Source of the DNA: Psammoneis japonica
Taxonomy: Eukaryota
Direction of reading: 5' to 3'
NCBI GenBank assembly: GCA_008632985.1
Contig: QPGO01000379.1
Location: 1-35,920, forward strand
DNA: 35,920 bases
Notes under the pieces: model-generated
The model's input: the letters and a program-made list of their open reading frames with translations, nothing else
Databases searched by the model: none
What the model was told of the DNA's origin: nothing
Program-made: the position numbers and the translations under genes
Part shown: positions 4,005-27,000 of the stretch, in pieces
Numbering within the stretch: position 1 is the stretch's first letter
How the letters are laid out: each line of letters starts with the position of its first letter

Positions 4005-4044
4005 AGTACTATGAACGCTTTTCAACAACTTGGTTGCTCGAAAC

Positions 4045-4609: not shown

Positions 4610-5585
4610 ACAGGGTCCCCCCTTGTTCATCCAAAAATTACCGTGACATTTGAATAAAGCTGTTTGCTGAGTGATGATTTTTGAACACAAAAACGTTCAC
4701 ACATTTGCCCAAAAACGCCCACACATTTGCCCTGGATCGCACACGAAAACCAGAGCATCGAGGAGGTGCTCTCTCAATCAAGGAGGAAAAGGAGCATGAA
4801 CAGCTGCAGCCATCAACACATTTCTCAAAATTGCAGTCTGCCAGCAACACACTCTCACCTGACACACTGACCATGCAATGCGCGGCGAGCATGGCGGCAC
4901 CAATCGAGAGGGCTGTGCCTCTGTGTGCCTGTCTGTCACAAACTTGTGGTCACAAACTTGTGGCTTTTGGTTTTCACCACAGTGTGGAGCACAGTGAAAT
5001 AAAAAATCAGGCAAATCATGAGCTGTTTGTTGGCCAAATTCAAGCAGAAAAAAGCAGCAGCAACTGGCCGCCCCCTTGACCATGCTTCTGTTCTGAGATC
5101 TTGCAATGACTTGCCAGGTTTTCATTCATGACAGGCCTGCCAGGCTGGATTGCTCAATCAATGGCAAGCAGAGAGCCCTTGTGATGCCATCGGGGTTGCT
5201 GTGCTGTGCTGTGTGTGGCAGGGTGCATGCGCCGGCACTCTCTGGGCGCTTGCCTGCTTTTGTGTGGTTTGCACGTTGTTGAGCAAGGTGCACAAAAAAG
5301 GGCACTTGCCCCTGGAAACAGCTTTTGTTTCTTCAGTGCTGTCATCATCATCACAACAATGACCGTGCCTGGATCATCGTGCCTGTGCTGCCCTCGCCCC
5401 CACAGCCATCTTTTGCGCCTTTCTTCATCATTCTTGTGCCTGACTGCGGTCTGCAGCATCTCTCTTTTTCAGACAAGTGTCAGTCTTAAAGGCAAGATTA
5501 GGGTTGTCAGTTGGGCCTCAGAATGATTGAAGAGGTGATGTTGTGCAAATACAGAGTGTTGTTGTTATGATCATTGTGTTTTCTC
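4610..5585. other. TpA/CpG-depleted island; decayed repeat or gene fragment of unknown origin
   Basis: Only one TA (5000-5001) seen between ~4657 and ~5486. CA/TG is strongly enriched and the ORFs are Cys/His-rich and Tyr-free. Boundaries are approximate. Confidence 0.7.
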
Positions 5586-5602
5586 CATGTAAGCAGGAGC
5601 GA

Positions 5603-5661
5603 CAGAGGGTCATTCAATATATATCGTATCCGACTCGTATACATGTATTGAATGACCTCTG
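5603..5661. repeat. Short inverted repeat / hairpin (possible MITE remnant)
   Basis: cagagggtcattcaata ... tattgaatgacctctg: ~16-20 bp arms with one indel. Confidence 0.65.
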
Positions 5662-5999
5662 CTACAGAAATCTTAGTGTCCGAATACGCCTATAATTTTT
5701 TTGTCGTGGCACAAAAACTGGGACGAACAAAGATGCCATGATCCATGATCACACAAATCCAACTACCATAGCAACAACAGCGGCACACTTCATAAGGTTG
5801 CAAGGCTTAGCTTTAAGGCCTGCTTGTTCGTCTATGCCTCTCAGACGTCGTCCATAATAGAATTACAACACCGATAAGATCGAATTGTTCAATCGTTCCA
5901 TCACACAAGGCGTAGGAACTCGAGTGAGAAGTGAGAAGACAGCAGCAGCTGGGGAAGAATTCTAATTTCATAAGCAATCATCGCAAACAGCACTCTACA

Positions 6000-7232: not shown

Positions 7233-7443
7233 AAATAGCTCTACTATTGCATGTTGGGTGATCCGTGTTATGTTTGCTCTATTACAGTTGTATCCACACT
7301 ACAACAAGCTCGAGCGCGGGCGATCATTCAAGATCACGCGTTTATCGCTTTCGCGCGCATTTTTGTTTTTGTGGCGGGAAAGAAGAGGACGATGGTACGT
7401 AGCAATGCAAGAGCACAGATTTCGTACAACAGGAGCACCGACA

Positions 7444-10996: not shown

Positions 10997-12380
10997 GATG
11001 TGATTCAGCAAGTGACAATGGTTTAATGGCGTATTGTGCGTTTGGTCTGTTGGGTTTCCGACAGTGAAGATTTGATCTCGCGCACGTGTGCGCGGTTATT
11101 AGACTGTGTAGGCGTGTGTGCGTGTGTGAGGTGTAAGTAGAATATACGTAGAATTACTACTGATGAGTTGACAGGCGGTGGATTTTCCGCCGGTACACAA
11201 TCTACGCGGTCTACATGGAACATAAATTTATGTAGGTCTCTTAGGGTTTTACATATCATTGAAATTTCTTGGACCTTGAGGAGATACATACCCAAATTCA
11301 AAAAAGTGAGGAACACCCCGAAACACATTTTAGAGGATGAATAAAAATTATTTCTATATAACGGTCCGAACAGGGTCGCCCCGAAGCGCTTCTCAAAATA
11401 TCTAGAGATTGTATATAGTAAAACATCTACTATTAGCAAAACAGAGTCACTATCGGATAAATAGATCCCGTGTTCTTCGCGCGCAAACAACACGATAACG
11501 CACAACAACACCATGGCGAGAAACGCGAACGCCGTCCCCTCATCTACAAGCTGGGAATACGAGATACTATTGAAGTGGTTGGACAGTGTGTATGCGCTTT
11601 ATTCATGGGTCAAGTTGGGTTTCTTCTCGCTGCTTGTTGTTGCGTCATTTTACAACGTTTTGACCCACGCCGTGTTCTTTGCTTTGTTGCTTCTGCTCGC
11701 GCGCCACCAACAGCTTTTCCTGCAGGGTATGGCCAGTTGCACGGCTGCATCGAACCCAAACGTGCGCGACCAACTAGCCATACCCCGGCTAACTCATATT
11801 GGTCACAATATCTGGAGGGTCGGATTCCATCACTTTTTTTGATGTGTCCAAAACCATCATTGGCACACTCTCGCTAGAGGTGCGTCACAAAACACTGCCG
11901 AAGCGGGTCGAGAGTTGCGTTCAGCAATAGTCACTCTTGTATGTCAGCTCCGGCCGTAGCAGAAAAGTTCATTGCCATGCAACAGTGCACAAAAACTTTC
12001 TGCTGCAGGTATCTCTCTAGCTGGAGATACCACCGGTACGGAAGTTCGCTTGAAACATAGAAGCGAGAAGAGCCAAAAAATGATGACGGATAGACGCAAA
12101 AACAGAATCGAAAATCCCGCCCGCGGTTACCGGAATCCGCCGGTTATGCTTTTGCTTGCTTTACCCGGCTATGGCCAAGACCCAAAAGAATTCAATGATT
12201 CAAACTCACATCATAGCAGAAAGCCCTGTCAGAACCTTTGTCGGCATTTGTCTTTGCCTACAGTACCATAGCTTTTTTATCGTTTTAGCAGAGCGGAGAA
12301 CAAAACTTTCAAACAGCTATGCATTATGCATCATTCCAAGTTCCATACTAGGCCTAGATTCACTACATCCGCATTAAAGC

Positions 12381-13868
12381 CTAACGACCCAGAAAACGGT
12401 CATACAAAGAACGAGATTCAGCGTCAGTTTCATCGTCAAAGTCTTCTGGATTGCTTTCGTCTGTTTCGTAATATGGATCCTCCCAAGCCTCGCCTTCTAC
12501 CAAATCTTGACTCTCGGCGACAAGCGCTGCTTCTTCCTTGGGATCGATGGGTTTCGGAAGCTCCGCTTCGAGCATGCGCCTGCTCATCCTCCATGTGAAT
12601 GTTACATAGTGCAAAACACTCAAGTCTTCCACATCGCTGCCGTACGGATCACTCATTTTCTGTCCAAGTATTCGAAGACCAATGATGAAGATGCAGTTCA
12701 AGAACACAATGAGACCAGAAAGAATGTCGTTCAACCAATGTGCTTCATCGCCACTACCAGCATTGAGAGCAGCAGAGATGGCAAACAAAGGGAGGTAGAT
12801 CGCCGTGAGTAGGCAGATAAAGTGAAGGTAGAAGAAGCTGACCGGTTGGTCGTCCATGTCATACATCACTTTCAGTGACTCGCGAAGCTTGAGGACGACA
12901 CCAAATAGCAAGCCTCTCTGACGATTATCAATCAATTTTGCTTCAAAGGCCGTAATTACTTCGGCCAAGCACCATGTGACAAGTTCTCGATAGGCCGAAC
13001 CACCCATATTTACGTCTATCTTTCGCAAACGATCCATCTCCGCTTCCGTAAGTACTCGGTTAGCCTTGTTGAATTCTACAAAGAAATTGTTGAATGTGTA
13101 GGTGGAAGACAGGCCTACATACCCTGCAACATGCTGATAAGAAAAAAAGAATACAGTATTAGCCACCTCGAGGAAGAGCCTTGACCAGCCGAATCAATGC
13201 ATCAGTAAACCCAAAGTACATATTACCAAGGCATTCATGTAGCGGATGAAACGAAAGGCATTATCTCTCGGCATGATTGTCTTCGCGATGCCCGCTCCAT
13301 CTAAGATACGTCCTTCACAGGACATTGAGTGACCATAGAGTGAATCAAACCTCTTGTTGCAGGAAACAACAAAGAATACTGTAAACAGAAAAACAACACA
13401 ATCCGCGTTTAGCTTCTAGCCCAAATGGAAGGCGATTGAACCACAATACAAGGCAAAAATATACAGCGTACCCAAAAAGAAGATGAGAAAACCTCCAATG
13501 CTTGCAATGTCTGCACCGCCTAGTTCAGAGAAGAACTCAGGTAGCCCACCGAGCCTTGCTCCAAGCCGGACGCCGACGTAGAGTATCATGCAAATCCACA
13601 TGAGTGGATCGTGAAATAATGCATTTAGAACGGTGCCGTCCCAGAAGCAGAGAATGCGAAAGAACGGAAGCTCTGTTCGTTCCAGAATTGCACGTCGACG
13701 GCGCTCGATGCGGCACAGTTCCTCCCACGACAGCTCATCGTCGCTGCCTACTAAGAGTTTCGTAACCGTGCTCTTCAACGCCTTAGAGGCGGATCTCGAT
13801 GCGGATCTTGATGCGGGTTTCGATGCGGTTTCCGAGGAGGACTTCGAGGTGGATTTCGAGGCGTTCAT
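12381..13868 (-). CDS. Bestrophin-like anion channel
   Basis: PVSFFYLHFICLL and LGQKMSDPYGSDVEDLSVLHYV (bestrophin DPxGxD motif), plus N-terminal FWDGTVL and transmembrane segments. Two introns at ~13381-13469 and ~13135-13225. Confidence 0.8.
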
Positions 13869-14520
13869 GATAGATGCTGCGACTCGTAGCCCTATGTGAA
13901 GACTTGGGAACGAATTGTTGGTTGGACGAAGGATGGAATACCTAAATTATTGATAGAAACAAACTCCAAGGCACATCCGGTGCGATAATACTATGCACGG
14001 GAAAACAAAATGCAAAAAAACTTGAAAAAAATAATAAAAAGCGAGAGAAGATCGATGTCAGCTGCCTCGCGTCACCTTCAACCAGGCAAACCTTCAACAA
14101 GGGACGTGCGTAGCGTGCCGTCCGGTGGGTGTCGTCCAAGGACATACGGTAGTTATATCCTTGATACGGCACGGGTGGTCACCTTCCATGTCGGACTTGA
14201 TTTTAATTTTTGAGTAGCGGCAGATTCTACGGTATGATGTGGTGCAGCAAAAACGACGTCTCTCTGCCCATCCGTGTTTGAATGTCAACTTCTCGGGAAA
14301 TCTGATCAAAGGCGTTGCTCTTCACCATGTGAGTCAAAATGACTGTGATCAGACGACGTTTCAGTTGAGTTCCTACAAAATCATTGGCTTCAGCCACCCT
14401 TTTGCATGACATTTTGCACATTTGCACATGATTTGGTGCATTTTTCCTCATGCAAAATGTTGGTTGTGACTCTCGCGACATTTTTGAGCGAGACTTCTGT
14501 TGTGGTGACGGGTGAGCCAC

Positions 14521-14900
14521 AAACAAAAATGAGCAAGACCATGATGGCAAGAGGCGGTGGTGGCGGCAGTGCAAGAAGCACAAGTCTGTATCTGCCAAGT
14601 GCTGCACAGCATTCCAGCATGAGCCACCCGCCCACAACAAGGTGAAACAGCCAGAGCAAAAAAGGCTCTGTCTGCACTCGAGTTTGCCGTGCTGCTGTGC
14701 TTGCCTGTTGGCTGCTGGTGCCACCCAATCTTGCTGTTTTGTGTGATGGTCAAGAAGGTGTTGGCCCCTCCTTCTGAAAAAGATCCAGCTCATTTCTTGC
14801 AGCTCATCAATGACAGCCCCTGTGTGCCAAGGGAATTTTTTGAGCACAAAAACCCAGCAACAAATGGCAGCACAACAAAAATGAGGCAAGCTCTCCTCTG
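14521..14900 (+). pseudogene. Decayed copy 1 of the 5' end of the GT14 gene (24073-24420)
   Basis: Colinear similarity, e.g. aaacaaaaatgagcaagaccatgatgg vs aaataaaacgagcgaaaccatgatgg. Residual peptide KKVLAPPSEKDPAHFLQLINDSPC matches KKVSVPPSEKDPVHLTLINDSPC. Confidence 0.9.
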
Positions 14901-15646
14901 TTGAGCTGAAATGCCAGCCTGTTTTTTGAACCAGCTCACATGCATCATGGCGCAGCTGGCAAAATGATCTGCAAAACACAACATGCTGTTGCGAGCCAAA
15001 ACACCACCGCCGCCCCTCTCATGTTTCTGCTGCATGGCATTGTCCCCCACAATTGAAGCTCACAAGACTGCCAACTTGGCACTGAGAACTCTGTTGCCTG
15101 TTGTCTGCATTTTGTCTGCTGGAAGCACAAATCTGTGTCTGCTGAGTGCTGCACAGCATTGCAGCATGAGTCATCCCACAAGATGAAACAGCCAGAGCTT
15201 GCCGCGCTGCTGCTGTGCTTGCCTGTTGGCTGCTGGTGCCACCTGATTTTGCTGTTTTGTGATGGCCAAGAAGGTGTCAGCCCCTCCTTTTGAAAAAGAC
15301 TCAGCTCATTTTTCCCCGCTCATCAATGACAGCCCCTGTGTGCCAAGGGAACTTTTTGATTTTTTAGCAAAAAACCCAGCAAATGGCAGCACAACAAAAA
15401 TGAGGCAAGCTCTCCTCTGTTGAGCTGAAATTTCAGCTGTTTTTTGAACCAGCTCACATGCACTGTGATGCAGCTGGCAAAACAACCTGCAAAACACAAC
15501 ATGCTGTTGTGAGCCAAAACAGCACCACCATCACCCCTCATGTTTCTACACGGCAATGCCCCCCACACACACAATTGATGCCCACCATGAGACTGCTGGC
15601 TCAGCACTGAGGACTCTGTTGCTTGTTGTCTGCATTTTGTCTGCTG
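14575..15646 (+). repeat. Tandem duplication, two units of ~530-545 bp (14575-15120 and 15121-15646); unit 2 carries decayed copy 2 of the GT14 5' end
   Basis: Both units start gaagcacaa.tctgt.tctgc, share aaaaatgaggcaagctctcctctgttgagctgaaat and end ttgtctgcattttgtctgct. Confidence 0.9.
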
Positions 15647-15758
15647 CTCCCCCCAGCCAACCTCTTTTGGCTTTGTTGTGCCCAACCGCAAAAAAGCGTG
15701 TGATTTTCCTGTGGTGAAATCCTGGAATTTTGCATCTGACAATTGCAGGCAAAAAAAA

Positions 15759-15850
15759 CAGCAGCAGCAGCAGCAGCAGCAGCAGCTGGGTGATGGTTGT
15801 CATTTCAAACCATTCTGTGTGTGTGTGAGTGTGTGGGTGGGTGGGTGGGT
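15759..15850. repeat. Microsatellites (CAG)9, (TG)n and (GGGT)n
   Basis: Seen directly: cag x9 at 15759-15785, and tgtg.../gggt repeats at 15815-15850. Confidence 0.9.
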
Positions 15851-17039
15851 TGTCAAAACAAGGCAGATGTTTGCTGCAGCAAGGAGCACATCTAAAAAAT
15901 GATGCCATCAGCAAGTTTTTGTCCACTCAGTGCCCACGCCAACATGTTTTGGGGGTGTTGCACCAGCATCATGTTTGCTCCACACAGGGCCTCACCCACC
16001 CCCTGAAATTCACTTGAGTCAAACATTGGACTGACCAACAATGTGGCTGAGTCACAGGACTTTGAAAAAGTGGATGCACACATTTCCAGCCCATCCACCT
16101 AAAATCAGCTGCTGCTGCTGTCATGCTGCGCACCTTCTGGTGCTTTTCCAATGACAAGCAATGAGCGCACAAATTGAACAATCATCAAAAGTGAAAGTGG
16201 TGCTTGTCTCTACAATGCTTGTTTCAAAGATGATCATCTTGATGCCACCAACAACCCCCATCCTGTGACTCACATGTGTGATGGACCTGCGGTGCTGTTG
16301 TGAGAAAATTGGGTGTGTTGATTTGCAGCTGTGCATCTTGTGGTGCAGTGTCATGTTTTGATGGTTTTGCCTGTTGCCTGCCCTTGTCTTGCTCAGAGTT
16401 GTTTGTTTCATCTCATGTTCTGGTGGGTCAAGATGCCAATGTTCCATTGTTCACACTGCTGGTGCCATGTGAGTGACATGCTGCTGGATTGAGCTCAACC
16501 TGAGTGACCAGCATTGTCGGTCAATCTGGGGTGCATCAGGAACTGCTTCTCATTGATTGTGCATGACAGCTGGACTTGAAACCTGACAAAAACACCTGGA
16601 TTGGCTTGCACATGACAATTTGGACTGATGTTGGGTGCCTGGTTCATTTGGTCATGTGTCTCCATGCAGTTGAGGGCAATCTTGTTGTTGGGTCCATTGG
16701 AGCTGCTTTTGCATCATCATTTGTGCATGATGGTCAGACTTGGAAACTGACAAAAATGCCTGGATGTTCAACTTGTTTGGCCGTGTGTGCTCTTGGAGTT
16801 GAGGAGCATGATCAATCTTGCCCTCACCCTCATTTTTGGCAGCCAAGGCACTGGAGCTGACCTCATGCTGCTTTTGCATCATTTGCACATGATGGCTTTG
16901 CTTGGAACTCAACTGGCTCTTGTGCAACAATTTTGGACTGTTGCAGTGTGTTTGATCTGTTTGGTTGTGCACCCTTGCACAGTTGAGTGTCATTTTTCTC
17001 ACGACCCTGGCCCTCATTGCTGGGCGTGCTGGAGCCACT

Positions 17040-17200
17040 TTTGCATCAATTGCAGCATTGTAAAATCGTTGACTTCCTCCCAACAATTGAGGATTGCAAC
17101 CGTCGATTGCACCAGGCTTTGCAGCAATCGAAAGATTGCAATTGCAAAGTGATTGCCACGTGCAACAATCGATTGCAATTGCAACAGCGATTGGCCCCTG
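17040..17200. repeat. Cluster of GATTGCA/TGCAATC motifs, probable hAT subterminal repeats (also at 20220-20300 and 23567)
   Basis: gattgcaac, gattgcaattgcaa and caatcgattgcaattgcaac flank the transposase on both sides. Exact TIRs were not resolved. Confidence 0.55.
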
Positions 17201-17419
17201 CAAGAGTGCCCACTGCGCAGGTGATGGTGCTGCAGGCAAGATTTTTTTGCGATTGAACTGCGTTGCATCTGCTTTTTTGAATGCATCTGACCTGCGTTGT
17301 CAAGGCAAACTGTCAAAAAACATGCTGTTGCTTGCTTGTTGTTTGATGTTTGAAGCTGCAAGGATGCTGATTCCATGATCACTCTTCTGGGTTGATGTTG
17401 TTCTTTGCAATTGTCATCC

Positions 17420-19985
17420 CGCACTGTTGCAATTTCTTCACATGATCCCTGCAATGCGTTCACATGTGCACCATGAATGATTCATTCACACGGAGAATTG
17501 CCAACATTCTGAGTTCCTTCTCATCAAGCAAAGTGTTCCCGTCATGCAATGCCAGCTGTGCAATCGAGCTGATTCACTCGGCACAGCTTTCTGCATTCAG
17601 TGCTCCAATCTGACCACGAGACGAGCCGGCCACAACAGGGAGAAAACCACGCATCTTCCAATTCTTGTCACTCAACTCAAGTTTCTTGCACAGTTTTCCA
17701 ATGTCCAACTTCATGACATCCTGGATCAAGTCTGGCGAATCTGCCAGAATGTCACAAGAAGGGTGCTCTTTGTGCCACTCAATTTCCTTTCGACTCCACC
17801 ATTTGAGTGCTTTTTTGAATTCCTTTGATGCCTTTTCCTTGTCTTCAGTGACCAAAGTGGACTCAATTGGCTCTTCATTGTCCTCTTCACTGTCAGAGGA
17901 GCCAGACTCCTCTCCCCTGAGCTGCCAAGGAAAGACAAGTCCACGGTGTTGTTGATGCTGTGTGATGAGCCGCTGCCCTTGCTCTTGGCACCTTCTTGTT
18001 CAGTCTTGCATCTCTTTGCTGCTTTTGCACTGTTTGATTTCAAATCATCATTCCCAGCAGCCTCATTTGCATGTTTCTTGGCTTTCTTGTTCTTCTGTTC
18101 CTCAGCTCTCTTCTTCCAATTGGCTTGATGCTGGTGCTTGCCGTGTTGCACACAGAACTTGACATGCTTTTTTTACAAACATTTCACGGCACGTTCTTGC
18201 ACATCTTGGGAAAGCACAGAGGTGCACCTTGCAGTGTGAAGATCAAGGAGAAGAGCCAGCAGCTGTCGGTTGTTGAGTGCAATTTTGCCCGGCTCTGAGA
18301 GTCGCTCATTGGTGGTGTTGCCCAAGAATCGCCGCTCAAATTCTGTGATCGCCCTTTCTCAGCACGTGGCTCCTGCAGAAGAGAATGAGGCAAGCTCTTG
18401 CTCACATCATGGCAGATTTTTGTCTTTGCCAACCTTCTCTGGCACGACCATCGACAACTCACTGCTCGTCAATGCATCACACATCATTTTCTGAATTAGC
18501 GGGCCACACGCACTGCAGCACAGAGCATCGCATGCTGTGCCATTTTGGCAAGAACTTGTGTCACTTGGAGCACCACCTCAAATTGCTGCCACAAGGCATC
18601 AGTGAGAATGAAGGCATCCTTGTTGCTGTTGTGGAAGTGAGCAACGCCTCGTTGCACATGAAGGAGCCAGTTCAATGGCTGGTGCCCTGCATCAATCCTT
18701 GTGCCGTTGATGTCCAGTTTGGGTCTGAGGGCGGCAATGCCAGCTTCCTTGCACGCCATTTCCAACTGGGAAAAGCGCTTGTCAAATCGGAAGCACTTTG
18801 CTGCAGATTTTGCTTTGTCCATCACAGCCGCTCCATCCTCGAATGGATCAACTTTAACCTTGTTTTTAGAGCGTGCCAATGCCCCCACTGCAGACTGTCC
18901 TGTCTTGTCTCCGTCATGCACATCACATGCTTCAGTGTCTTCAATTTCAACAAACTGCCGTGACACTCCAAGGGCGGCACTGTCTGATGCCATCAAAGCA
19001 ACAGCTTCCTCCATCGTCAAGTTGCATTGATCGACGAGAGCATGTCTCGAAGTGGCTCGGCAACCTTGTCATCAGCATTGTGTTGTGAATGCTCAAACCC
19101 AAGACAAATCACTGTGTTTTCAATCCACCTTGGATCAATGAACTGCATGCCAGCTGATTGACATTTCTTGCCATTTGCAAGAGTGACTCCATCATGAATG
19201 ACTTGGGCATGGGACAAACCAAAACTCTGCTGCTGTTTCTTGAGCTTAAACATGATCATGGCAAACCGAGTGAAAACTGTAAATTCCACCGACACACATT
19301 GTTTGAGTTTGCATTGCAACAGAGCAGGTGCATTTGGATCTCCGCTGGCTTGACATTTCATCATCTGAACAAAATGCTTGTCCGCAAAGGTGCGACAGGA
19401 GATTGCTTGCTCAGAACATGCACGCCACTGGGCTTGAGATGACAATCTCATTTCATCTTCAGATGGCTCAAACCCTTTCAGTGGATTTTTTACATGCACC
19501 TGAGCATCATCTTTTTCACTGGCCACCACAGCAAAATCCAACTGCTGTTGCTTTTTCATGCTTTGCAAAATCACGATTTTTTTCGCTTCATTCGCGCGGT
19601 CGTCGGGGTGGATGTCCTTCATGTGCTTGATGGCTTTAGAAGCAGTGCAGCAGTGTTTGTCCTTGGGCTTCACCAGCTTCACAAATCATTGGGGACAATC
19701 AGGGAGAGTGCGTGCATGCATGTGTCCCTCTTTTGACTTGGGGTGATCTGACGCCAAGCGAAGCACATGATCCCACACGGGTGACTTGGTCCCTCATTTG
19801 CCAGGGCTGTTTGCTCTTGTTTTGAATGAAGGATCATTTTCCCAAGGAGCAACCTGTGCATTGTCTCCCTGCACACCTTTTTCCAAGTCGTCCACCTTCT
19901 CCTCTACATTTGACCCCGTGTCCACCAATTTCTCACCATCGCTGCCTTCCGACACGTCCATCACATTGTCTGCAGCCACGCTCAT
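17420..19985 (-). mobile_element. Degenerate hAT-superfamily transposase (stops and frameshifts)
   Basis: BED-finger remnant (HACTL...TASKAIKHMKDIH), first catalytic Asp region (QVIHDGVTL), ASDSAA, CxxH (ACDVHDGDK), NGTRI, and a C-terminal dimerisation region (QIGALNAESCAE*ISS...LRVNESFM). Confidence 0.85.
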
Positions 19986-20321
19986 TGCATTCTTCAAAAA
20001 AGAAACCAAATGACCAGATGAAAATGGCACATCAATCGGTCATTGCTCCAAAATTATGAGACCTCATTGAGACTTTTCATTTGTTTTCGGGCATGTCGTC
20101 CAAAATTCACCCTTGATCTGTTGTTCTTGTTTCTCGCGCTTGGTTCTTGTCAGTCCCGTGTTTGCCTCATTGATCAGAAAATGTCCTGGACTCACGACTA
20201 AATTTCACTCATGACTTGACTGCAATCGATCACAAACATGATTGCAATCCTTGTGTCCATGTGATGCAAACAATCAGCAGATTGCAGTCATTTCGATTGC
20301 GGTCCGCAACCGAGTTGTGCA

Positions 20322-23300
20322 ACTCAGAATGCTGCACACTGCCTGACGAGCACGGGAGGTTCTCAACAACCCAAGAGGCAAAGAAATTGCCACTCGGCCA
20401 ATTGTTGAGTCGCTTCTCCGCACACACATTTGGGCATGTGTTGTGCACAGCATCATCACACAGCATTTGTCCAACTCTCCCTCTCGTCGCAGGATGGGTC
20501 ATTGCCATGTGGCGCATCCGCACGGCGGACTTACGAAATTTTGACCATGCACTCCCTCTGGTGGGCAGGATGGGTCAGGCACATGTCCGGTCACGTAGGT
20601 GGCTCCAAGTTTGTGAAAAAAAGAAGAGGAAAAGGAGGAGGAGGAGAGAGGGAGAGATTCATTCGTGCCGCAGTGGGGCATGCACGACGCCCAGACGATT
20701 GGCGCTTCCGATGCATGTGGCTGCTGGGCAGTCGCAGCTCTCTAGCCAGTGAAGACTCCAATGACAGCAACATGCCATGATCCATCTAAATGCATCATCT
20801 GCTGCTTCATTGCTCACAGAAAATTTACACGCACACTGCCAACGCTGCCGTTGAGATGCGCAGCTGCCGATGAGCCAGAACTCCATCACTTTTGAAAGCC
20901 GGCTCCACCTCATTTCCTCTCTGGCAGACCCAACTAGATGCAAAAAGATCCACAATCTGATTCCCTAAAGGAACAACTGTTGTCAAAGGACTTGAGTCGT
21001 GCAGAGCATTGGCATGGAAAGGCCACTTTAAGCGCTCGCAGTCCCAGATGTCCATGCTGAAAAAATGACAGGCAAAATGAAAACATGAGTGGAACAACAT
21101 GCACAGTGACAATTCATTGGAGCAACATGTCACAGTGTGCTCACTGGGGCACCTTTTAGAGGCAGAGCTGAGTCGCCTTGCCAATTTTTATGCCCCCAAG
21201 TGCCATCAGTGGTTCGTGGCATCCGCACATTCAAGAGGAGGCGATGAGCCTGCCAACACAAGCCTCAACCTCCCCATTTTACACATTGTCAAGCCTGGAG
21301 TCGTAGTTGCACCATCAAGATCTCCCAAAATGATGCGGACGACATCATGTCTTGCATGTTGATGATGATGCGGTTGAAGGGCAGGTGGAAAGGATCACTT
21401 TAGACCAGACACCTGCACGCATGAACGAGGCGCACAAAAAATGCTCGTGAGGCATGCAAGTTTCTTCAAAACGAGTCAAACACTCAAACAATTACAACAC
21501 ACTCGTGGGATTACCTTTTTTGGACTGTGACAAGACTGTCTGACAATTGCCATCATCGCAAGTGTCCTCCAGGCTCCATCGCATCATTTTGTTCCTACGG
21601 CATGCACTTTCCAAAAATTGTGATGGCTGAAACACAACATGCCGTGATTGTGTGCCGACCAAGCCCCCAAGAAGGATGTCAAGCAAGTCACAAATCCACA
21701 TCAATGTACACAATGGGTGCACCAAAGGATGTAGAGTGGGGTGAAGCATAAAGATCCCAAACAGGTGTGCTTTGGCGGCACCAACAACTTGAAAAACATG
21801 CCAACATCACAGATGCAACAATCGCCCACATGAGATGATCAATCCACCTTGTGAGCTGAAACAAAAAACAACAATGATCTTTGGCAAATGGGAAAACGAA
21901 ATAAAATTAAAAACACGCACAAAGAACTCACCTCGGCGACGTTGTCGACCATTCAGATGTTGCCCGCAGCATGCAGCAATTGAGGCACGAGTCGATGCAC
22001 GCAACCGTTTGCACCGTGTGTCGCAACCAAAGCCCCCCAGGGAACCAAGTCAGTGTGTCAAATTTTTTACAACAGCAACAGAAAGAGATCACACATGGAA
22101 AACACGTCTGCCCCATGATGTTTGCCATGCCGAGACACATCAAAGTGCAATGTGCATGGCCATTTCTTGCGGTGCGATGTGCCAAATTGGGATCATTTGA
22201 GTGGAATGAAGGAAATGAAGAGGATTCCCTCTTTCGTGTCGTTGTGCAACTTGCACCAGATTGGACCGTTCCTTTCTGCTTGTCGTCACAGAAATGGAAC
22301 TGTGTTGTCATGGGATTCTGCGCAAGTTCCAGTGCATTTCCCACACAGTTCATGAAGAGCCACCTACGCAGCTGGACGATTGCCATGGGTTAGCACCATG
22401 TGGCGCATCCGGCCATGCCAAGCCAAGGGAGGAGTGGGTTTGAAGCCCAACCGCCCACCCCGGATGGGGTTGGAAAGGGGCAGGCCGAGAAAGAAAAGGA
22501 GGCTTGGATTTGAGGCCGACTCGAACGAGCGACCTCAGGAAGCGTAAAGACTCATGACCACTCAGAATGCTGTACACTGCTGCTGGTGCCCAACAAGTGC
22601 GGGCGGTTCTCAACAACCCAAGAGGCAAGAAATTGCCACTCGGCCAATTGTTGAGTCCCTTCTCCGCACACACATTTAGGCATGTGTTGTGCACAGCATC
22701 ATCACACAGCATTTGTCCAACTCTCCCTCTCGTCGCAGGATGGGTTGTCACCATGTGGCGCATCAGCACGGCGGACTTACGAAATTTTGACCATGCACTC
22801 CCTCTGTTGAGCAGGATGGGTTAGCGCCATGTGGCGCATCTGGCCAAGGGAGGAGTGGGTTCGAAGCCCAACCGCCCACCCCGGATGGGGTTGAAAAGGG
22901 GCAGGCCGAGAAAGAAAAGGAGGCTTGGATTTGAGGCCGATTCGAACCAGCAACCTCAGGAAGCGTAAAGACTCACAACCACTCAGAATGCTGCACACTG
23001 CCTGACGAGCACTGGAGGTTCTCAACAACCCAAGAGGCAAAGAAATTGCCACTCGGCTGATTGTTGAGCCCCTTCTCCGCACACACATTTGGGCATGTGT
23101 TGTGCACAGCATCATCACACAGCATTTGTCCAACTCTCCCTCTTGTTGCAGGATGGGTTGTCGCCATGTGGCGCATCCGCACGGCGGACTTACGAAATTT
23201 TGACCGTGCACTCCCTCTGATGGGCAGGATGGGTTGGCACCATGTGGTGCACCCGGCCAAGGGAGGAGTGGGTTCGAAGCCCAACCTCCCACCCCGGATG

Positions 23301-23556
23301 GGGTTGGAAAGGGGCAGGCCGAGAAAGAAAAGGAGGCTTGGATTTGAGGCCGATTCGAACCAGCAACCTCAGGAAGCGCAAAGACTCACAACCACTCAGA
23401 GTGCTGCACACTGCTGCCGGCACCTGACGAGTGCGGGCGGTTCTCAACAACCCAAGAGGCAAGAAATTGCCACTCGGCCAATTGTTGAGTCCCTTCTCTG
23501 CACACACATTTGGGCATGTGTTGTGCACAGCATCATCACACAGCATTTGTCCAACT
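20322..23556 (-). mobile_element. Tandem TRIM-like non-autonomous LTR retroelement: 4 LTRs and 3 internal segments
   Basis: LTRs at 20322-20476, 22560-22722, 22981-23135 and 23394-23556 (155/163/155/163 bp). 5-bp TSD GTGCA at 20317-20321 and 23557-23561. On the minus strand a PPT (GAGAGGGAG) precedes the LTRs and a PBS-like GGT(TG/CA)TGAGTC follows them. Confidence 0.85.
20578..22384. mobile_element. 1.8-kb TIR DNA element (non-autonomous; GG termini with 8-bp TSD, Merlin/IS1595- or MULE-like) nested in the TRIM
   Basis: 28-bp TIRs ggcacatgtccggtcacgtaggtggctc (20578-20605) and gagccacctacgcagctggacgattgcc (22357-22384) match at 21/28. TSD is ATGGGTCA (20570-20577) / ATGGGTTA (22385-22392). 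Removing the element restores a full TRIM unit. Confidence 0.85.
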
Positions 23557-23639
23557 GTGCAAACAGGATTGCAGTTTGTTGAGTCGTCAGCGATTTTGTG
23601 ATGCTGGTCAATTGTCGTGTGTGGTGTCTCACCCTGGAA

Positions 23640-23735
23640 TGGCTTTTGTGCAACTGCGTTGGCTCATGTGCAACAATTTTTGACTGTCATTGTGTGTTTG
23701 GTCTGTTTGGTTGTCCCCGCCCTTGCAGCTGTGAG
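23640..23735 (+). repeat. Dispersed direct repeat of ~16890-16985
   Basis: ggctcatgtgcaacaatttttgactgtcattgtgtgtttggtctgtttggttgt vs ggctcttgtgcaacaattttggactgttgcagtgtgtttgatctgtttggttgt. Confidence 0.75.
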
Positions 23736-24091
23736 CCAGAGCTCGAAGCTGTTGTTGGGTGGCTTGAAAGCGAGGAGACAAGACGTGGAGCTCTTCTGAG
23801 GCGTGTGGCTTCCACTTGCATTCCAGTCCAGTCATGTGCCATGCAACATAAGCAAGGAATGTTCAGCTCTACCACATGGCAGCTCATCGCAATGTTCTGC
23901 CTGCAGCTCTGCTTTGGCTGTTCACATGGCCGGGAGGATGTCGCGATGCGCCATGCTTTGCGACGCACATGCAGACGTGCGCGTTTTATCCCTTGCGATT
24001 TTTTTTGCGGGCGGACGACGGCGGACGCGCAATGACGAGACGACATACAGACATACAGCAACATACAATAGGAAATAAAACGAGCGAAACC

Positions 24092-27000
24092 ATGATGGAA
24101 GGCGACGGCAACGGTGTAAGAAGTACGTCTATGTCTACAGAATACAGTACAGTGTTTCAGCATAAGCATAAGTTATCCTATGAGATGAAACAGTCAGGGC
24201 GCAAAAGTATTCCGTCGTTGTTTGCGTTCAAGTTTGTCATTGCTCTGCTTGCCTGTTGGTTGCTGCCATCCAATCTCCTTGTTGTGACGGCCAAGAAGGT
24301 ATCAGTTCCTCCTTCTGAAAAGGATCCGGTTCACTTGACACTTATCAATGACAGTCCCTGTATGCTGGAAGTGTTTTGGGTGAATCCCGCCAATGGCGAC
24401 ACGACAAAAATGAGCTCTCCTCGGTTGGAGCCCGGAGGTTCGTTGCCTCTGAATTCCTACGAGGGACACAAGTTTGAAGTACACAATGTGCTGAGCAAAT
24501 GCTGTGGCTCGACAAAGGATAACTGTAATCGAATGAATAGCTTTGTCATGACGTCTCAACCGAAACAAGTGATGCGTGTCAAGGATGGACTCGAGTTTGT
24601 TCTGGAAGAAGGCCATGACGGCGGAGATGGCTCTACTCTAGTTCGAAAGACGGAAGCCAATGGTCTGACACGGCATGCCAGGACAAATCAAAGGACTTTG
24701 GTGAACTTACATGACTTGGATCTGGAGGCGAATAAAGAATTAGACTTGGGAGTGGACGATCCAGCAGAGGCTGCGAGACAAGTCATGAACCGCATTGGAG
24801 CCACTGTGAGTTAGTCAATGCCTCTTTTATGTTGTGTACAAGCTGCAACATTGCTGTTTTCTCTCACATATTACTACTTTTTCGTTTTCTAGTTGCACAA
24901 GCGAATGACTAAGGTGTTTGAAAAGGCTAAGACAAGGGAGTGTCGCGCATTGATTGGTGAGCACTTTGGATATTTTGTCAATGCTCTTGGGACGGAACAC
25001 AGCATTCCATTTGCCGACGTTTCGTTTGAAAACCAATGCAATGAAACCAAATATGACCTTGATAACTTGCCGGAAGGCATGCATTTTGGGCATATTCAAA
25101 ACAGAACATACCAGCCACCGCGAGATGAGGCTGAATACATTGACGACCCGGCCAACCTCAAGCTGTGCTATGCTGTATTGACGCACGACGATGCGGCTGC
25201 GACTATTCGATTGATTGAAGCACTGTACGAAGAGGGCCACGTGTTTGTTGTGCATGTGGATGGCAAGGAGAGCAGTGATGAGGTACAAGAGACACTTACA
25301 AAGTACGCCGCTTCGAGGGATCATGTTCACGTTTTGCAGCAACCATATCGAGTGCGAGTCAACTGGGGCGGATTTTCTATGGTGAATGCCACCTTACAAG
25401 CTTTTAAATACGCTTTTGCAGTTGATCAGGCGCATTCGGAGCCACTTGATTTCCACAAGATGGTACACATTGCGGCATCATCGTATCCAATCGCATCTAA
25501 TACTGAGATTCGGAGGCGCATTGCGTCATACCCTCTCGATGCCAATATGATGAACGTAATTATGAAACCGAGCAAGATCCACCCGCACAATTGGCATTAC
25601 TTTGTAGAATGCGATGACGCCGTGCATAGAATCTATCGGCTCGAGCCCATGACTGAGAAACAGGGAAGCATTGATCTCTACACATCCAGTCAGTGGTTCA
25701 TTTTTAGTCGAGAGTTTACTAAGTACATTGCCGAGGCACGCCCGGGGACCCTAGTCCACGACTATCTCGAGTACGTTCAGCATGTCGTCGTTGCGGATGA
25801 GACCTTTTTCGGTACTGTTTTGAGGAATACTCCATTCTGTCACAAGCACCACAACACGAACTTTTTGCATCTTCAATTCGACAGGTAAGTTTCGTGGCAC
25901 TTCCGTGAACGAAGGCTTTTTTAGAATTGCCTCACGCTTTCCCTGTTCTCCTTTGTCAGGTGGGAAAGTGAGTTGGAGCAAGGGAAGCGAGATGAAAGGA
26001 AATGCCTTATGCCTTCACCAGACCATTGCGGGAGATCACCAACGACAATGACAGTGGACTACATTGATGTTTTGGAGCTCTCGGAAGACCTCTTTGCACG
26101 AAAGTTCTCTGATTCAGCCGACTCAAAAATCAAGGACTATCTTGACATACATCGAGCAAAAGAAGAAGAACAACTGAAATCGGGAACAGATCTACCTTTG
26201 AATGTGAAGGGACCGGAGAGTGGCTTCACAGAGCACGGCGTGATGATCTTGGCCAAAGAAACGGTACAGAACGACAAGCCCCTATGCCTTGGACTCGGAG
26301 ACACCGGAAACAAGGTAGGAACAGGCCTCTACGTGTTTCCTTTATTTGGCTTTTTGCTTTTGGCTGATTTGCCTTGCGCTTTTTTCTACAGCTTCGACTT
26401 GTGCCTTGCTTTCACTCCTGGGTACCAAACACACTTGCGCCAGGCTGGGAAACTGGTGCCGTCATTGAAGAAGAAACACTGCTGCATAATCGCTGGGAGA
26501 TTGGTCCGTGTAGTTCGGATGGATCTCTTGAACGAACGTGAGTCTTGAATGCATGTGTCCTGTTATGGGTTCTCGTAGTCTTTCTTAAATCTATCTTTTT
26601 TCCTTCTTTGTCATAGCCCAACTGGTGAAATGAATATGACCGAGGGAATCTTTAGCCCAATAGGACCACGGTGTATGCTCAAGCAGGTGGATGGAATGCG
26701 TGCTGGCAGGTGCTTGGACGGCGAATCAGAGCGGACACAACCTGGAGGTGACTTGCAAGTCTTCCCGTGCATTCGACGTTGGCATCAATTTGTATCGTTC
26801 GGCAACGGTAACATTACGCCTGCCGGAAGTATGCACACCACAATCCCACGGTACATTGTGAAGAGGATAGTAGAAAGCGGGAAAGATCAGGAACCGTACT
26901 TGTGCCTTGGGGTGCATGGCAGGGGAGACCGTGACGAGGAAGAGTGGGAAGAAGACAAAAAGAAGAACCTAGGAAATAAAAAGTCGAAACCCGTGACAAC

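What the first reader, a model, noticed from the sequence alone, without database searches (positions are those of the whole stretch)
14521..15420. Built-in control: dead copies of the GT14 5' end have lost the TAs the live gene keeps
Seen, gene vs copy: aaaTAaaaCGagCG (24073) -> aaaCAaaaaTGagCA (14521); gtgTAagaagTACG (24114) -> gtgCAagaagCACA (14569); aagaaggTAtcag (24293) -> aagaaggTGtcag (15268) and aagaaggTGttgg (14752); ctTAtcaatgacagtccctgTAtgc (24341) -> ctCAtcaatgacagcccctgTGtgc (14803, 15319). This polarises the change as TA->CA/TG on both strands. The functional copy keeps even synonymous TAs (GTA Val). Inference: unlike RIP, which hits both partners of a duplication, targeting follows the chromatin domain rather than homology.
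Basis: seen in the sequence. Interest (0 to 1): 0.85.

Follow-up and report, generated by a model that had tools for sequence, protein, structure and literature searches.

The report
TA-erasing mutation in diatom repeat island
Two dead copies of the start of a diatom sugar-transferase gene lie in a repeat-filled stretch of DNA where nearly every TA step has been turned into CA or TG, while the working gene nearby keeps its TAs; the same kind of localised mutation was recently described in an unrelated alga.

Summary
All ten quoted strings are exact. Gene 24073-24431 aligns with copy A (14521-14906) and copy B (15122-15448). None of 12 (A) or 11 (B) gene TAs survives; 10 of 12 and 11 of 11 became TG or CA. 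Other non-CG dinucleotides are kept 192 of 302 times (p=8e-6).

Three caveats apply. A and B are one tandem 547-bp unit and share the same TG/CA outcome at 9 of 9 well-aligned TA sites, so they count as one lineage. CG is lost as completely as TA. A:T>G:C changes also exceed G:C>A:T outside TpA, 30 against 12.

The copies lie in a sharply bounded 9.8-kb block (about 14235-24045) with TA o/e 0.09 and CA/TG o/e about 1.7. Most of it is genome-wide repeats; the copies themselves are at single-copy depth.

The window is from a diatom. TpA>TpG/CpA hypermutation is described in a 2026 preprint on Bigelowiella natans. Six searches found nothing for diatoms.

Polarity is supported indirectly, because no sister-species outgroup could be obtained. 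"Domain, not homology" is plausible but no chromatin data exist. Verdict: a new member of a known kind.

The parts
14235..24045 (.). TA-poor, CG-poor, CA/TG-rich block (repeat island) between two divergently oriented genes
   Evidence: 52 TA in 9.5-9.7 kb (5.4 per kb against 40.2 per kb outside). o/e: TA 0.09, CG 0.45, CA 1.72, TG 1.75, GC 1.29, against 0.58, 1.00, 1.15, 1.15, 1.10 in the rest. Last dense TA on the left at 14233, first gene TA on the right at 24046. Summed contig depth is 3x to about 140x the flank depth over 16-24 kb. 0 of 75 stop-to-stop ORFs of 70 aa or more hit Pfam at E<=0.01.
14521..14906 (+). Dead copy A of the GT14 5' end (23 bp of leader, the ATG, and codons 1-113 with indels and stops)
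   Evidence: Local alignment to 24073-24431: 269 of 348 identical, 68 transitions, 11 transversions; TA kept 0 of 12, CG kept 0 of 13. GC 0.51 against 0.46 in the gene fragment; 1 TA against 15.
15122..15448 (+). Dead copy B (lacks the start codon region; begins at the tandem-unit boundary)
   Evidence: Local alignment to 24120-24453: 226 of 298 identical; TA kept 0 of 11, CG kept 1 of 8.
14575..15646 (+). Two units of a 547/525-bp tandem repeat holding copies A and B plus about 235 bp of unrelated sequence each
   Evidence: BLASTN 15122-15646 vs 14575-15121, 79.7% over 567 columns. Same TA outcome in both units at 9 of 9 clean sites. Private changes polarised by the gene: 11 G:C>A:T, 7 A:T>G:C, 4 transversions. 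Depth 40-68 against a flank of about 57, i.e. single copy in the genome.
24073..24431 (+). Source segment in the live GT14 gene (leader plus first 113 codons of exon 1)
   Evidence: 15 TA and 16 CG in 359 bp, TA o/e 0.58. Translation is open.
24092..25888 (+). Live GT14 gene: exon 1 24092-24805, GT..AG intron 24806-24892, exon 2 from 24893 (Branch domain)
   Evidence: PF02485 Branch, E 3e-19, on 24893-25888. Intron sequence. An X2 contig joins 24805 to 24893 (table 8, record 13). Orthologue P0121 and domain family.
22385..23660 (+). Three tandem units of about 425 bp, with a further piece at 20322-20586; the most highly repeated part of the block
   Evidence: Self-BLAST 90-94%, alignment, summed depth up to 8060 against 57. 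TA o/e here is 0.14-0.16 and some TAs are shared between units.
4656..5486 (.). Second, small TA-poor island with the same signature
   Evidence: One TA (5000) in 830 bp. Over 4501-5500: TA o/e 0.11, CG 0.42, CA 1.66, TG 1.81. No similarity to the large block.

Best explanation
WHAT IT IS. A roughly 360-bp piece of the 5' end of the GT14 gene was copied into the neighbouring intergenic repeat island. There it was exposed to a locally confined, strand-symmetric mutation process that converts TpA to TpG or CpA. The same stretch also underwent CpG>TpG/CpA decay.

ORDER OF EVENTS. The TA purge was essentially complete before a 547-bp piece was duplicated in tandem to give copies A and B. After that the copies diverged with an ordinary spectrum.

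THE LIVE GENE. The live gene starts about 50 bp beyond the island edge. It is transcribed and spliced and was not touched.

THE KNOWN PARALLEL. This is the long-term footprint of the kind of TpA-directed A:T>G:C hypermutation measured directly in Bigelowiella natans. It is seen here in a diatom.

SHOWN: the direction, the dinucleotide specificity, action on both strands, confinement to the island, and sparing of the homologous gene segment.

INFERRED: that the chemistry is enzymatic deamination of adenine in DNA (A>I, read as G) by a TadA/ADAT2-type deaminase with a T-A-pyrimidine preference, recruited to silenced repeat DNA and not by sequence homology.
For: Specificity. TA is kept 0 of 12 times against 192 of 302 for other non-CG dinucleotides (p=8e-6). 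10 of 12 (A) and 11 of 11 (B) outcomes are TG or CA.

Both strands. 6 TG against 4-5 CA in the copies. 1020 CA against 1039 TG in the block.

In situ, not inherited composition.
- A host gene fragment lost its TAs.
- At residues conserved with the orthologue P0121 the copy is the changed partner in all 14 non-synonymous differences (8 A:T>G:C, 5 G:C>A:T, 1 transversion).
- For the multi-copy families in the block, other genomic copies carry TA where the window has CA/TG at 7 places against 1 the other way. They carry CG where the window has CA/TG at 7 places against 2 sites the other way. This is among the 37 rows shown inside the block, of 758 rows in all.

Confinement.
- TA density is 5.4 per kb in the block against 40.2 per kb outside. 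The longest TA-free gaps are 1113, 850 and 776 bp in the block against at most 242 bp outside.
- Gene fragment TA o/e is 0.58 against 0.57 for its exons.
- The single-copy-depth part (14.4-16 kb) is the most purged, at TA o/e 0.04.

Context preference. Surviving TAs are 7 per 502 of the flank frequency where a TAT reading exists on either strand, against 45 per 507 elsewhere (p=3e-8). In the gene-copy comparison A>G is commonest before C or T (AC>GC plus GT>GC 17 of 41, AG>GG plus CT>CC 2 of 41).

Precedent. The B. natans mutation-accumulation lines show 230 of 231 hypermutable-region mutations as A>G/T>C, all on TpA, in a single-copy integrated virus. There are 124 TpA-poor/CpA+TpG-rich clusters genome-wide, and an ADAT2-like candidate is named (results and discussion read).

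Recurrence. One of the 79 other loci fetched around a diatom JmjC gene (L075, a diatom) has a 2.3-kb block with no TA over 1859 bp and CA+TG o/e 1.5-1.85.
Against: - No DNA-level outgroup, so no individual synonymous TA is polarised by parsimony.
- A and B are one lineage, so the gene-copy control is a single replicate of about 12 TA sites.
- A:T>G:C changes outside TpA are frequent (30 against 12). This does not match the 'only TpA' report for B. natans. It could mean a second process or a broader specificity.
- No recognisable transposon or viral protein is in the block (0 of 75 ORFs), so 'foreign DNA' as the target is not shown.
- No methylation, chromatin or small-RNA data exist, and no deaminase gene was examined because no genome is held.
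- TA and CG depletion rise together across sub-blocks (TA 0.04, 0.03, 0.06, 0.16, 0.14 with CG 0.20, 0.26, 0.47, 0.63, 0.63). This fits a shared cause such as age or methylation-linked repair as well as it fits a deaminase.
- The outcome (TG or CA) at single gene TA sites does not clearly follow the TAY rule (4 of 6 informative sites, read by eye).
Confidence: 0.55

Rival explanations
1. The footprint is the same but the chemistry differs. A DNA base modification is laid down at the palindromic TpA step in silenced DNA, for example an oxidised or glycosylated thymine or a methylated adenine. It miscodes at a raised rate, in analogy with 5-methylcytosine at CpG.
For: TpA is self-complementary like CpG, and both decay to the same products in the same block. 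Strand symmetry and sharp domain edges are what a maintenance-type mark would give.
Against: No such TpA-specific mark is known to me in diatoms (recall; not searched). Sequence alone cannot separate it from adenine deamination, because an A with a 3' pyrimidine equals a T with a 5' purine on the other strand. In L075 TA is wiped out while CG is nearly normal, so the two marks would have to be independent.
Confidence: 0.15
2. Error-prone repair synthesis. Repair of deaminated 5-methylcytosine in methylated repeats recruits a low-fidelity polymerase that writes G opposite T at WA/TW motifs. The known parallel is the A:T phase of immunoglobulin somatic hypermutation by polymerase eta (recalled). 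TA loss would then be a by-product of CpG methylation.
For: TA and CG depletion rise together across the five sub-blocks. A:T>G:C changes are not restricted to TpA (30 outside TpA). This would explain the domain restriction without a dedicated targeting system.
Against: A WA motif predicts AA as a strong second target. AA>AG plus TT>CT is only 11 of 56 against 12 of 12 for TA. In L075 the TA purge is complete with CG o/e 0.6-1.0. In B. natans the mutations fall only on TpA.
Confidence: 0.12
3. The elements arrived already edited. RNA or cDNA intermediates of retroelements were A-to-I (or otherwise) edited before integration, so the island only looks locally mutated.
For: The island edges coincide with repeat-element edges: loose ends at 14271, a depth jump from 57 to 490, and a drop from 1802 to 56 at about 24000. 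Local CA/TG imbalance exists in places (16-17 kb: 48 and 46 CA against 79 and 79 TG).
Against: The gene fragment is host sequence at single-copy depth and was hit on both strands within 360 bp (6 TG, 4-5 CA). Editing of one strand of an intermediate gives one product only. CA and TG are equal over the block.
Confidence: 0.04
4. No mutation process is involved. The block is foreign DNA with a native TA-poor composition, or TA is removed by selection (for example against cryptic promoters or nuclease or transposon target sites).
For: The block has no recognisable host genes apart from the GT14 fragment.
Against: The host-derived fragment lost every TA after arrival. Other copies of the block's repeats keep TAs at the same sites. 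Selection strong enough to remove TA at this rate from non-coding, decaying DNA with stops and frameshifts is implausible. Changes are transitions to CA/TG only, not any TA-destroying change.
Confidence: 0.03
5. Sequencing or base-calling artefact at a modified TpA in the assembly.
For: The sequencing technology of the assembly and of run X1 is not on record.
Against: k-mer contigs of run X1 at depth about 57 reproduce the TA-free sequence with 1-4 differences per 340-806 nt piece (table 8). The copies also differ from the gene by indels, CpG changes and non-TA changes. A and B share the changes although they are 20% diverged.
Confidence: 0.02

Closest known systems
TpA-directed hypermutation of integrated viral DNA in Bigelowiella natans (Mettrop et al., bioRxiv 10.64898/2026.01.13.699255; outline, results and discussion read)
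   Same: The products are TpA>TpG/CpA on both strands. The process is confined to discrete regions while the rest of the genome is ordinary. The long-term signature is TpA depletion with CpA+TpG gain; the window block passes their thresholds (Rho TpA <=0.43, Rho CpA+TpG >=1.52) at 0.09 and about 1.73. A single-copy sequence can be a target, so homology is not required.
   Different: The host here is a diatom (stramenopile), not a chlorarachniophyte (rhizarian). The target is a repeat island without recognisable viral or transposon genes. The purge is far more complete (o/e 0.03-0.09 against their 0.45 for the NCLDV region). CpG decay accompanies it. A:T>G:C changes also occur outside TpA. No rate has been measured here. 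The host-gene fragment gives a natural before/after comparison that the preprint does not have.
Repeat-induced point mutation (RIP) of fungi
   Same: It is a hypermutation by transitions that inactivates repeated DNA and leaves a dinucleotide footprint in sharply bounded islands next to intact genes.
   Different: The direction is opposite. RIP makes C>T, mostly at CpA, and so creates TpA. Here TpA is destroyed and CpA/TpG are created. RIP mutates both partners of a duplication. Here the gene partner is intact. RIP is tied to the sexual cycle and to RID-type methyltransferases (recalled), which could not be tested.
CpG decay by deamination of 5-methylcytosine in methylated repeats
   Same: CG>TG/CA accounts for 11 of 13 gene CGs in copy A. 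CG o/e is 0.20-0.63 in the block.
   Different: It explains only the CG half of the signature. TA loss needs A:T>G:C changes, the opposite direction of base change.
A-to-I editing by ADAR, or C-to-U editing by APOBEC, of retroelement or viral intermediates
   Same: The defence works through deamination, and there is a 5' U/T preference for the edited A (as discussed in the preprint).
   Different: Those act on one strand of an RNA or cDNA and leave strand-asymmetric footprints in mobile copies. Here a resident, single-copy host fragment is hit on both strands. The 3' neighbour preference seen here (pyrimidine, G least) is opposite to the ADAR 3' G preference (recalled).

Membership tests
TpA-directed localized hypermutation (Bigelowiella natans type) | Changes are A>G/T>C at TpA, giving TpG/CpA on either strand | tested here: met
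   Gene TA is kept 0 of 12 (A) and 0 of 11 (B). 10 of 12 and 11 of 11 became TG or CA, both products present. p=8e-6 against other dinucleotides.
TpA-directed localized hypermutation (Bigelowiella natans type) | Exclusivity: essentially no other mutation class is raised | tested here: not met
   30 non-TpA A:T>G:C against 12 non-CpG G:C>A:T differences in the coding part, spread over all codon positions. 8 against 5 at orthologue-conserved residues. CpG is also decayed. Because these are long-term differences rather than measured new mutations, a second process may be layered on top.
TpA-directed localized hypermutation (Bigelowiella natans type) | [quoted passage not shown] | tested here: met
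   Block TA o/e 0.09, CA 1.72, TG 1.75. 31 of the 34 overlapping 500-bp windows passing the stricter TA <=0.2 and CA+TG >=1.5 lie between 14251 and 24000, and the other 3 lie in the small island.
TpA-directed localized hypermutation (Bigelowiella natans type) | Target is foreign or selfish DNA (integrated virus, virophage, transposon) | tested here: inconclusive
   Most of the block is repeated 3x to about 140x in the genome by summed contig depth. However, 0 of 75 ORFs hit Pfam, and there are no tRNA or Rfam matches.
TpA-directed localized hypermutation (Bigelowiella natans type) | Directly measured, episodic rate about 1000-fold above background | not testable with these tools
   Needs mutation-accumulation lines or strain resequencing. 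Only one DNA holder was found.
TpA-directed localized hypermutation (Bigelowiella natans type) | Independence from sequence duplication | tested here: inconclusive
   The gene partner is spared (TA o/e 0.58) and the single-copy-depth part is purged. But there is one case only, survivorship is possible, and the copy lies next to high-copy repeats.
Fungal RIP | C>T/G>A transitions that raise TpA at the cost of CpA/TpG | tested here: not met
   The direction is opposite: TA o/e 0.09, CA/TG o/e 1.7.
Fungal RIP | Both members of a duplication are mutated | tested here: not met
   The live gene fragment keeps 15 TA and 16 CG in 359 bp.
5-methylcytosine-driven CpG decay | CG>TG/CA with CG depletion in the silenced region | tested here: met
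   CG is kept 0 of 13 times, with 11 becoming CA/TG. Block CG o/e is 0.45 against 1.00. Methylation itself was not tested.
Editing of retroelement RNA/cDNA (ADAR/APOBEC type) | Strand-asymmetric footprint in copies made through an intermediate | tested here: not met
   6 TG against 4-5 CA within 360 bp of a single-copy host fragment. 1020 CA against 1039 TG in the block.

The most novel reading that the evidence does not exclude
Diatoms have a homology-independent genome-defence system that erases TpA from silenced repeat islands by deaminating adenine in DNA, an 'inverse RIP'. Its T-A-pyrimidine preference points to a TadA/ADAT2-derived enzyme. It is shared with chlorarachniophytes and is therefore old within the SAR supergroup. 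Its action stops within tens of bases of an active promoter, so the boundary is set by chromatin state and not by sequence.
Probability: 0.3. Interest if true: 0.85.

Novelty: new member of a known kind. Interest (0 to 1): 0.62.

Why it matters
Localised A:T>G:C hypermutation at TpA has so far been reported once, in a 2026 preprint on a chlorarachniophyte. There the long-term footprint in viral genes was weak or mixed.

In this window a diatom shows the process run to completion, with TA o/e 0.03-0.09 over nearly 10 kb. A natural before/after pair sits in the same window: a living gene and its dead fragment 9 kb away.

That pair shows three things. The TA-free composition was made in place. 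Both strands were hit. A homologous partner just outside the island was spared.

If the signature is general in diatoms, several consequences follow:
- A mutational genome defence would exist in a major, genetically tractable phytoplankton group.
- Repeat annotation in diatoms would need care, because purged elements lose all protein similarity.
- The search for a natural DNA adenine deaminase would gain a concrete assay: TA-rich reporters placed inside and outside such islands.

Tried and rejected
- Whole genome of the window: not held, so there was no genome-wide island survey, no paralogue check and no deaminase search.
- DNA outgroup: the search for homologous proteins with exon 1 among longer proteins gave no hit. 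The exhaustive representative search gave one orthologue protein (P0121, 54%) and 79 weaker domain relatives but no DNA. A metagenome scan with the exon-1 pair alignment matched 60 stretches by pattern, none confirmed.
- Protein-level polarisation of TA sites: the gene's TA sites in the conserved part are synonymous or fall at non-conserved residues, so only non-TA changes could be polarised.
- Identity of the block: Pfam on 23 ORFs at E<=1 gave only sub-threshold noise. Pfam on all 75 stop-to-stop ORFs of 70 aa or more at E<=0.01 gave nothing. ARAGORN gave 0 tRNA genes. Rfam at gathering gave 0 matches. Rfam at E<=1 gave one chance-level miRNA match, E 0.69. My impression that the 425-bp repeats contain tRNA T-arm-like motifs is therefore unsupported.
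- tblastn of 118 ORFs from outside the blocks against the blocks found only the GT14 fragment and self-matches of ORFs lying in the small island. No LTR or TIR pair bounding the block appeared in the self-BLAST or in the inverted-repeat scan of the left edge.
- Sequencing runs: no RNA holder is listed. X2 and X3 gave no or little cover over 14.5-16 kb; this says nothing on silence. X3 laid nothing.
- The 79 other metagenomic loci: only L075 (strong) and L067 (one marginal window) passed. These contigs are short and gene-centred, so the blank says little about other diatoms. L075 has no sequence similarity to the window. L078 overlaps L075 at 98% but starts just after its block.
- Earlier notes of this scan: none for this genome, nothing by sequence, and only phage cases for the word TpA.
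- Whether TG or CA at each gene TA follows the TAY rule: 4 of 6 informative sites, read by eye. Not pursued.
- Biased gene conversion: considered and rejected. GC rises only from 0.474 to about 0.49 while the change is dinucleotide-specific.
Full report
1. WHAT WAS CLAIMED AND WHETHER IT IS THERE

All ten quoted strings are present letter for letter at the stated coordinates (sequence). Plain BLASTN finds the homology:
- 24219-24427 vs 14669-14903, 71%, E 8e-25.
- 24241-24427 vs 15211-15422, 69%, E 2e-18.

A local alignment that penalises transitions less extends it to 24073-24431 vs 14521-14906 (copy A) and 24120-24453 vs 15122-15448 (copy B).

Copy A: 348 aligned positions, 269 identical, 68 transitions, 11 transversions.
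- Gene TA is kept 0 of 12 times (6 TG, 4 CA, 1 CG, 1 AA).
- Gene CG is kept 0 of 13 times (7 CA, 4 TG, 1 AG, 1 CT).
- The other 14 dinucleotides are kept 192 of 302 times. Per dinucleotide this ranges from 0.37 (GT) to 0.86 (TG).

Copy B: TA is kept 0 of 11 times (6 TG, 5 CA). CG is kept 1 of 8 times.

Fisher tests:
- TA against the other dinucleotides, p=8e-6.
- TA against AT, which has the same letters (9 of 21 kept), p=0.012.
- TA against AA+TT+AT, p=6e-5.
- With an alignment that treats transitions like transversions, TA is kept 0 of 11 against 197 of 283, p=3e-6.

TA and CG are the two classes that are wiped out.

3. THREE CORRECTIONS

(a) A and B are not two observations. They are two units of a tandem repeat (14575-15121 and 15122-15646, 79.7% identity). 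Each unit holds the gene-derived part plus about 235 bp of other sequence. At the 9 gene TA sites cleanly aligned in both, A and B have the same product (6 TG, 3 CA). Independent hits would agree only about half the time. The purge therefore preceded the tandem duplication, and the control is one lineage of about 12 TA sites.

(b) After the duplication the spectrum is ordinary. Among changes private to A or B and polarised by the gene there are 11 G:C>A:T, 7 A:T>G:C and 4 transversions. The single TA of copy A (14589) is a new TA made by one such G>A change.

(c) A:T>G:C changes are not limited to TpA. In the coding part of the A alignment, 30 non-TpA A:T>G:C differences stand against 12 non-CpG G:C>A:T. 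They are spread over codon positions 1/2/3 as 10/13/7 and are mostly non-synonymous. They therefore lie mainly on the unconstrained copy lineage.

At residues where the gene agrees with its orthologue, the copy's derived non-synonymous changes are 8 A:T>G:C, 5 G:C>A:T and 1 transversion. The commonest secondary class is A before a pyrimidine. From:
- AC>GC plus GT>GC: 17 of 41.
- AT>GT/AC: 14 of 42.
- AG>GG plus CT>CC: 2 of 41.

4. THE SURROUNDINGS

The copies lie in a block from about 14235 to 24045.

| Measure | Block | Rest of window |
|---|---|---|
| TA count | 52 in 9.5 kb (5.4 per kb over 9,666 bp) | 40.2 per kb |
| TA o/e | 0.09 | 0.58 |
| CG o/e | 0.45 | 1.00 |
| CA o/e | 1.72 | 1.15 |
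| TG o/e | 1.75 | 1.15 |
| GC o/e | 1.29 | 1.10 |
| Longest TA-free gaps | 1113, 850, 776 bp | at most 242 bp |

The edges are sharp. On the left the last dense TA is at 14233. On the right the first gene TA is at 24046, 46 bp before the ATG at 24092.

The flanking genes face the block with their 5' ends: the ORF 13416-13868 on the minus strand and GT14 on the plus strand.

A second small island (4656-5486, one TA) has the same signature.

The degree of purge varies along the block:

| Sub-block | 14375-16000 | 16001-17500 | 17501-20000 | 20001-22300 | 22301-24040 |
|---|---|---|---|---|---|
| TA o/e | 0.04 | 0.03 | 0.06 | 0.16 | 0.14 |
| CG o/e | 0.20 | 0.26 | 0.47 | 0.63 | 0.63 |

Surviving TAs are not random. 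Where either strand reads TAT they are 7 against 502 such sites in the flanks. Elsewhere they are 45 against 507 (p=3e-8). This agrees with the A-before-pyrimidine bias in paragraph 3(c).

5. WHAT THE BLOCK IS

No protein family is recognisable. 23 ORFs gave nothing above noise at E<=1, and 0 of 75 stop-to-stop ORFs of 70 aa or more hit Pfam at E<=0.01. There are no tRNA or Rfam matches. No other host gene fragment was found.

Contigs of the one public DNA holder (X1) were laid on 12001-27000. Summed contig depth by region:

| Region | Depth |
|---|---|
| Flanks | about 57 |
| 14.5-16 kb (the gene copies) | 40-68 |
| 14.0-14.5 kb | 490 |
| 16-20 kb | 155-280 |
| 20-24 kb | 850-8060 |

The block is thus a pile of genome-wide repeats, apart from the gene-copy part, which is single-copy at 85% likeness or more. 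Loose ends at 14271 and the depth steps place repeat-element edges at the edges of the TA-poor zone.

Only 37 'other letter' rows inside the block are shown, of 758 in all. Among them:
- Other copies have TA where the window has CA/TG at 7 places, and the reverse at 1 place.
- Other copies have CG where the window has CA/TG at 7 places, and the reverse at 2 sites.

This is a second, independent indication that the window's copies are the mutated ones and that the direction is TA>CA/TG and CG>CA/TG. It is a small sample chosen by the tool.

6. IS THE GENE ALIVE AND ANCESTRAL?

Exon 1 (24092-24805) is open. A GT..AG intron (24806-24892) holds 7 TAs. Exon 2 carries the Branch (GT14) domain, PF02485, E 3e-19.

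A contig in run X2 joins 24805 directly to 24893 (table 8, record 13). X2 therefore holds spliced transcripts of the gene. That X2 is RNA-derived is my inference; its record says 'DNA?'.

Exon 1 has an orthologue (P0121, 54% identity over residues 40-237, ending at the same exon border). It also belongs to a domain family with invariant N86, W96, G115, L120, H126 and F128. The copies have TGG(W96)>TGA, R111 CGG>CTG and frameshifts.

The gene fragment's TA o/e (0.58) equals that of the GT14 exons (0.57) and of the rest of the window (0.58).

7. POLARITY

A DNA outgroup could not be had. The one orthologue is too distant for synonymous sites.

Four indirect lines support the direction TA>CA/TG:
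- The copies are the derived partner at every conserved residue that differs.
- Other copies of the neighbouring repeats keep TA.
- The copy's composition matches its block while the gene's matches the genome.
- The same change has been seen happening in real time in another organism (paragraph 8).

8. WHAT IS KNOWN

The window is from a diatom. Its JmjC protein (33138-34451, minus strand) finds its best named relatives in Seminavis, Amphora, Nitzschia, Cylindrotheca, Pseudo-nitzschia, Chaetoceros and Rhizosolenia. Identity is 57-68%, and none is closer.

A 2026 preprint covers the known case: Mettrop et al., bioRxiv 10.64898/2026.01.13.699255. I read the outline, results and discussion. It reports mutation-accumulation lines of the chlorarachniophyte Bigelowiella natans:
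- 230 of 231 mutations in two integrated viral regions were A>G/T>C, all on TpA.
- The rate was about 1000-fold above background and showed in only some lines.
- One target is single-copy.
- 124 clusters of TpA-poor/CpA+TpG-rich windows exist genome-wide.
- An ADAT2-like candidate deaminase is named.

Six full-text searches found no such report for diatoms. The Phaeodactylum mutation-accumulation paper (PMC6604790; passages found by term search only) has no mention of TpA, hotspots or transposable elements. Supplements of the preprint are closed. Its tables of clusters could bear on how complete the purge gets in B. natans.

9. A SECOND DIATOM CASE

80 metagenomic loci were fetched around relatives of the JmjC gene: 540,908 bp and 2045 windows of 500 bp. 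Two loci passed TA o/e <=0.2 with CA+TG o/e >=1.5.

- L067 passed with one marginal window.
- L075 has a 2.3-kb block (2495-4835) with no TA at all over 2977-4835 and CA+TG o/e 1.5-1.85. A shorter such stretch lies at its start.

L075 is a diatom contig. Its JmjC paralogue is 64% identical to a Thalassiosira sp. protein and 57% to Skeletonema marinoi. It shares no DNA similarity with the window. I cannot tell whether it is a different species.

In L075 CG is almost normal (o/e 0.6-1.0). The TA purge therefore does not depend on CpG decay.

10. MECHANISM

Shown: a directional, dinucleotide-specific, strand-symmetric process. It acted in place on resident DNA, was confined to a repeat island, ran to near completion early in the life of the gene fragment, and spared a homologous 360-bp segment 9 kb away.

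Inferred: enzymatic deamination of adenine in DNA. The T-A-pyrimidine preference resembles the natural U-A-C target of TadA/ADAT (recalled). It is opposite to the ADAR preference for a 3' G (recalled).

Rivals for the chemistry:
- A miscoding modification at the palindromic TpA.
- Error-prone repair synthesis linked to repair of deaminated 5-methylcytosine. The parallel rise of TA and CG loss across sub-blocks favours this. L075 and the weak AA signal speak against it.

Readings that the host gene fragment argues against:
- Pre-integration editing of mobile intermediates.
- Foreign composition.
- Selection against TA.
- A sequencing artefact.

It is reasonable and agrees with the single-copy target in B. 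natans. It rests on one case.

No chromatin or methylation data exist for this locus. Lineages in which the gene was hit may simply have died, since 8 of 13 TpA changes would be non-synonymous. The fragment may also have been below any length threshold. Leakage from adjacent repeats, as known for RIP (recalled), would likewise explain why a single-copy fragment inside the island was purged.

12. VERDICT

It is a useful internal control showing that the TA-free composition of the island was made in place.

The phenomenon belongs to a kind described once, in another supergroup lineage. Its presence in diatoms, its completeness, the accompanying non-TpA A:T>G:C bias and the TAY context are new details.

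Noticed in passing
window 4656-5486: A second, small TA-poor island (one TA in 830 bp; TA o/e 0.11, CG 0.42, CA 1.66, TG 1.81 over 4501-5500). It lies between the diphthamide-synthase-like ORF and the next plus-strand ORFs and has no similarity to the large block.
   Followed up: partly
L075 2495-4835 and 25-456: A contig from a microbial-mat metagenome, diatom by its JmjC paralogue. It has a block with no TA over 1859 bp and CA+TG o/e 1.5-1.85, but nearly normal CG. It lies between two genes. L078 (98% identical over the shared 2 kb) begins just after the block.
   Followed up: partly
window 22385-23660 and 20322-20586: About 425-bp tandem repeats, 90-94% alike, with summed contig depth up to 8060 against a flank depth of 57. 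They contain GGTTCGAA-like motifs that reminded me of tRNA T-arms, but ARAGORN and Rfam find nothing. Some TAs here are shared between units, so this family is less purged.
   Followed up: partly
window 17524-18986: Run X2, which also holds spliced GT14 and neighbour-gene contigs, has a 1382-nt contig about 89% like this part of the block. It carries TA and CG at places where the window has CA/TG. This looks like a transcribed, less mutated relative of the element elsewhere in the genome.
   Followed up: partly
window 24092-24805 (GT14 exon 1, residues about 75-160): The N-terminal part of the GT14 protein is a conserved cysteine-bearing domain without a Pfam family (invariant N86, W96, G115, L120, H126, F128, C138, C145). 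It was found in 80 representative proteins at E<=1e-3. Some have 5-11 repeats of it, and some are fused to other C-terminal regions.
   Followed up: no
window 14272-14440: The left edge of the block is a short element of high copy number (depth 490 against 57). Other contigs join it to different, TA-rich flanks at 14271. It contains a 19-nt imperfect inverted repeat (14391-14409 / 14448-14466).
   Followed up: partly
window 23950-24045: The last 95 bp before the gene's TA-rich leader are CG-rich (not CG-depleted) but hold only one TA. The TA and CG boundaries on the right side therefore do not coincide exactly.
   Followed up: no
window 12001-27000 vs run X1: The single-copy contigs of X1 differ from the window at a few places (for example 12118, 13404, 14164, 14555, 14656, 15060, 15074, 15174). 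X1 is therefore not letter-identical to the assembly, and could be another haplotype or strain, or carry errors. The five differences inside the block are all transitions.
   Followed up: no
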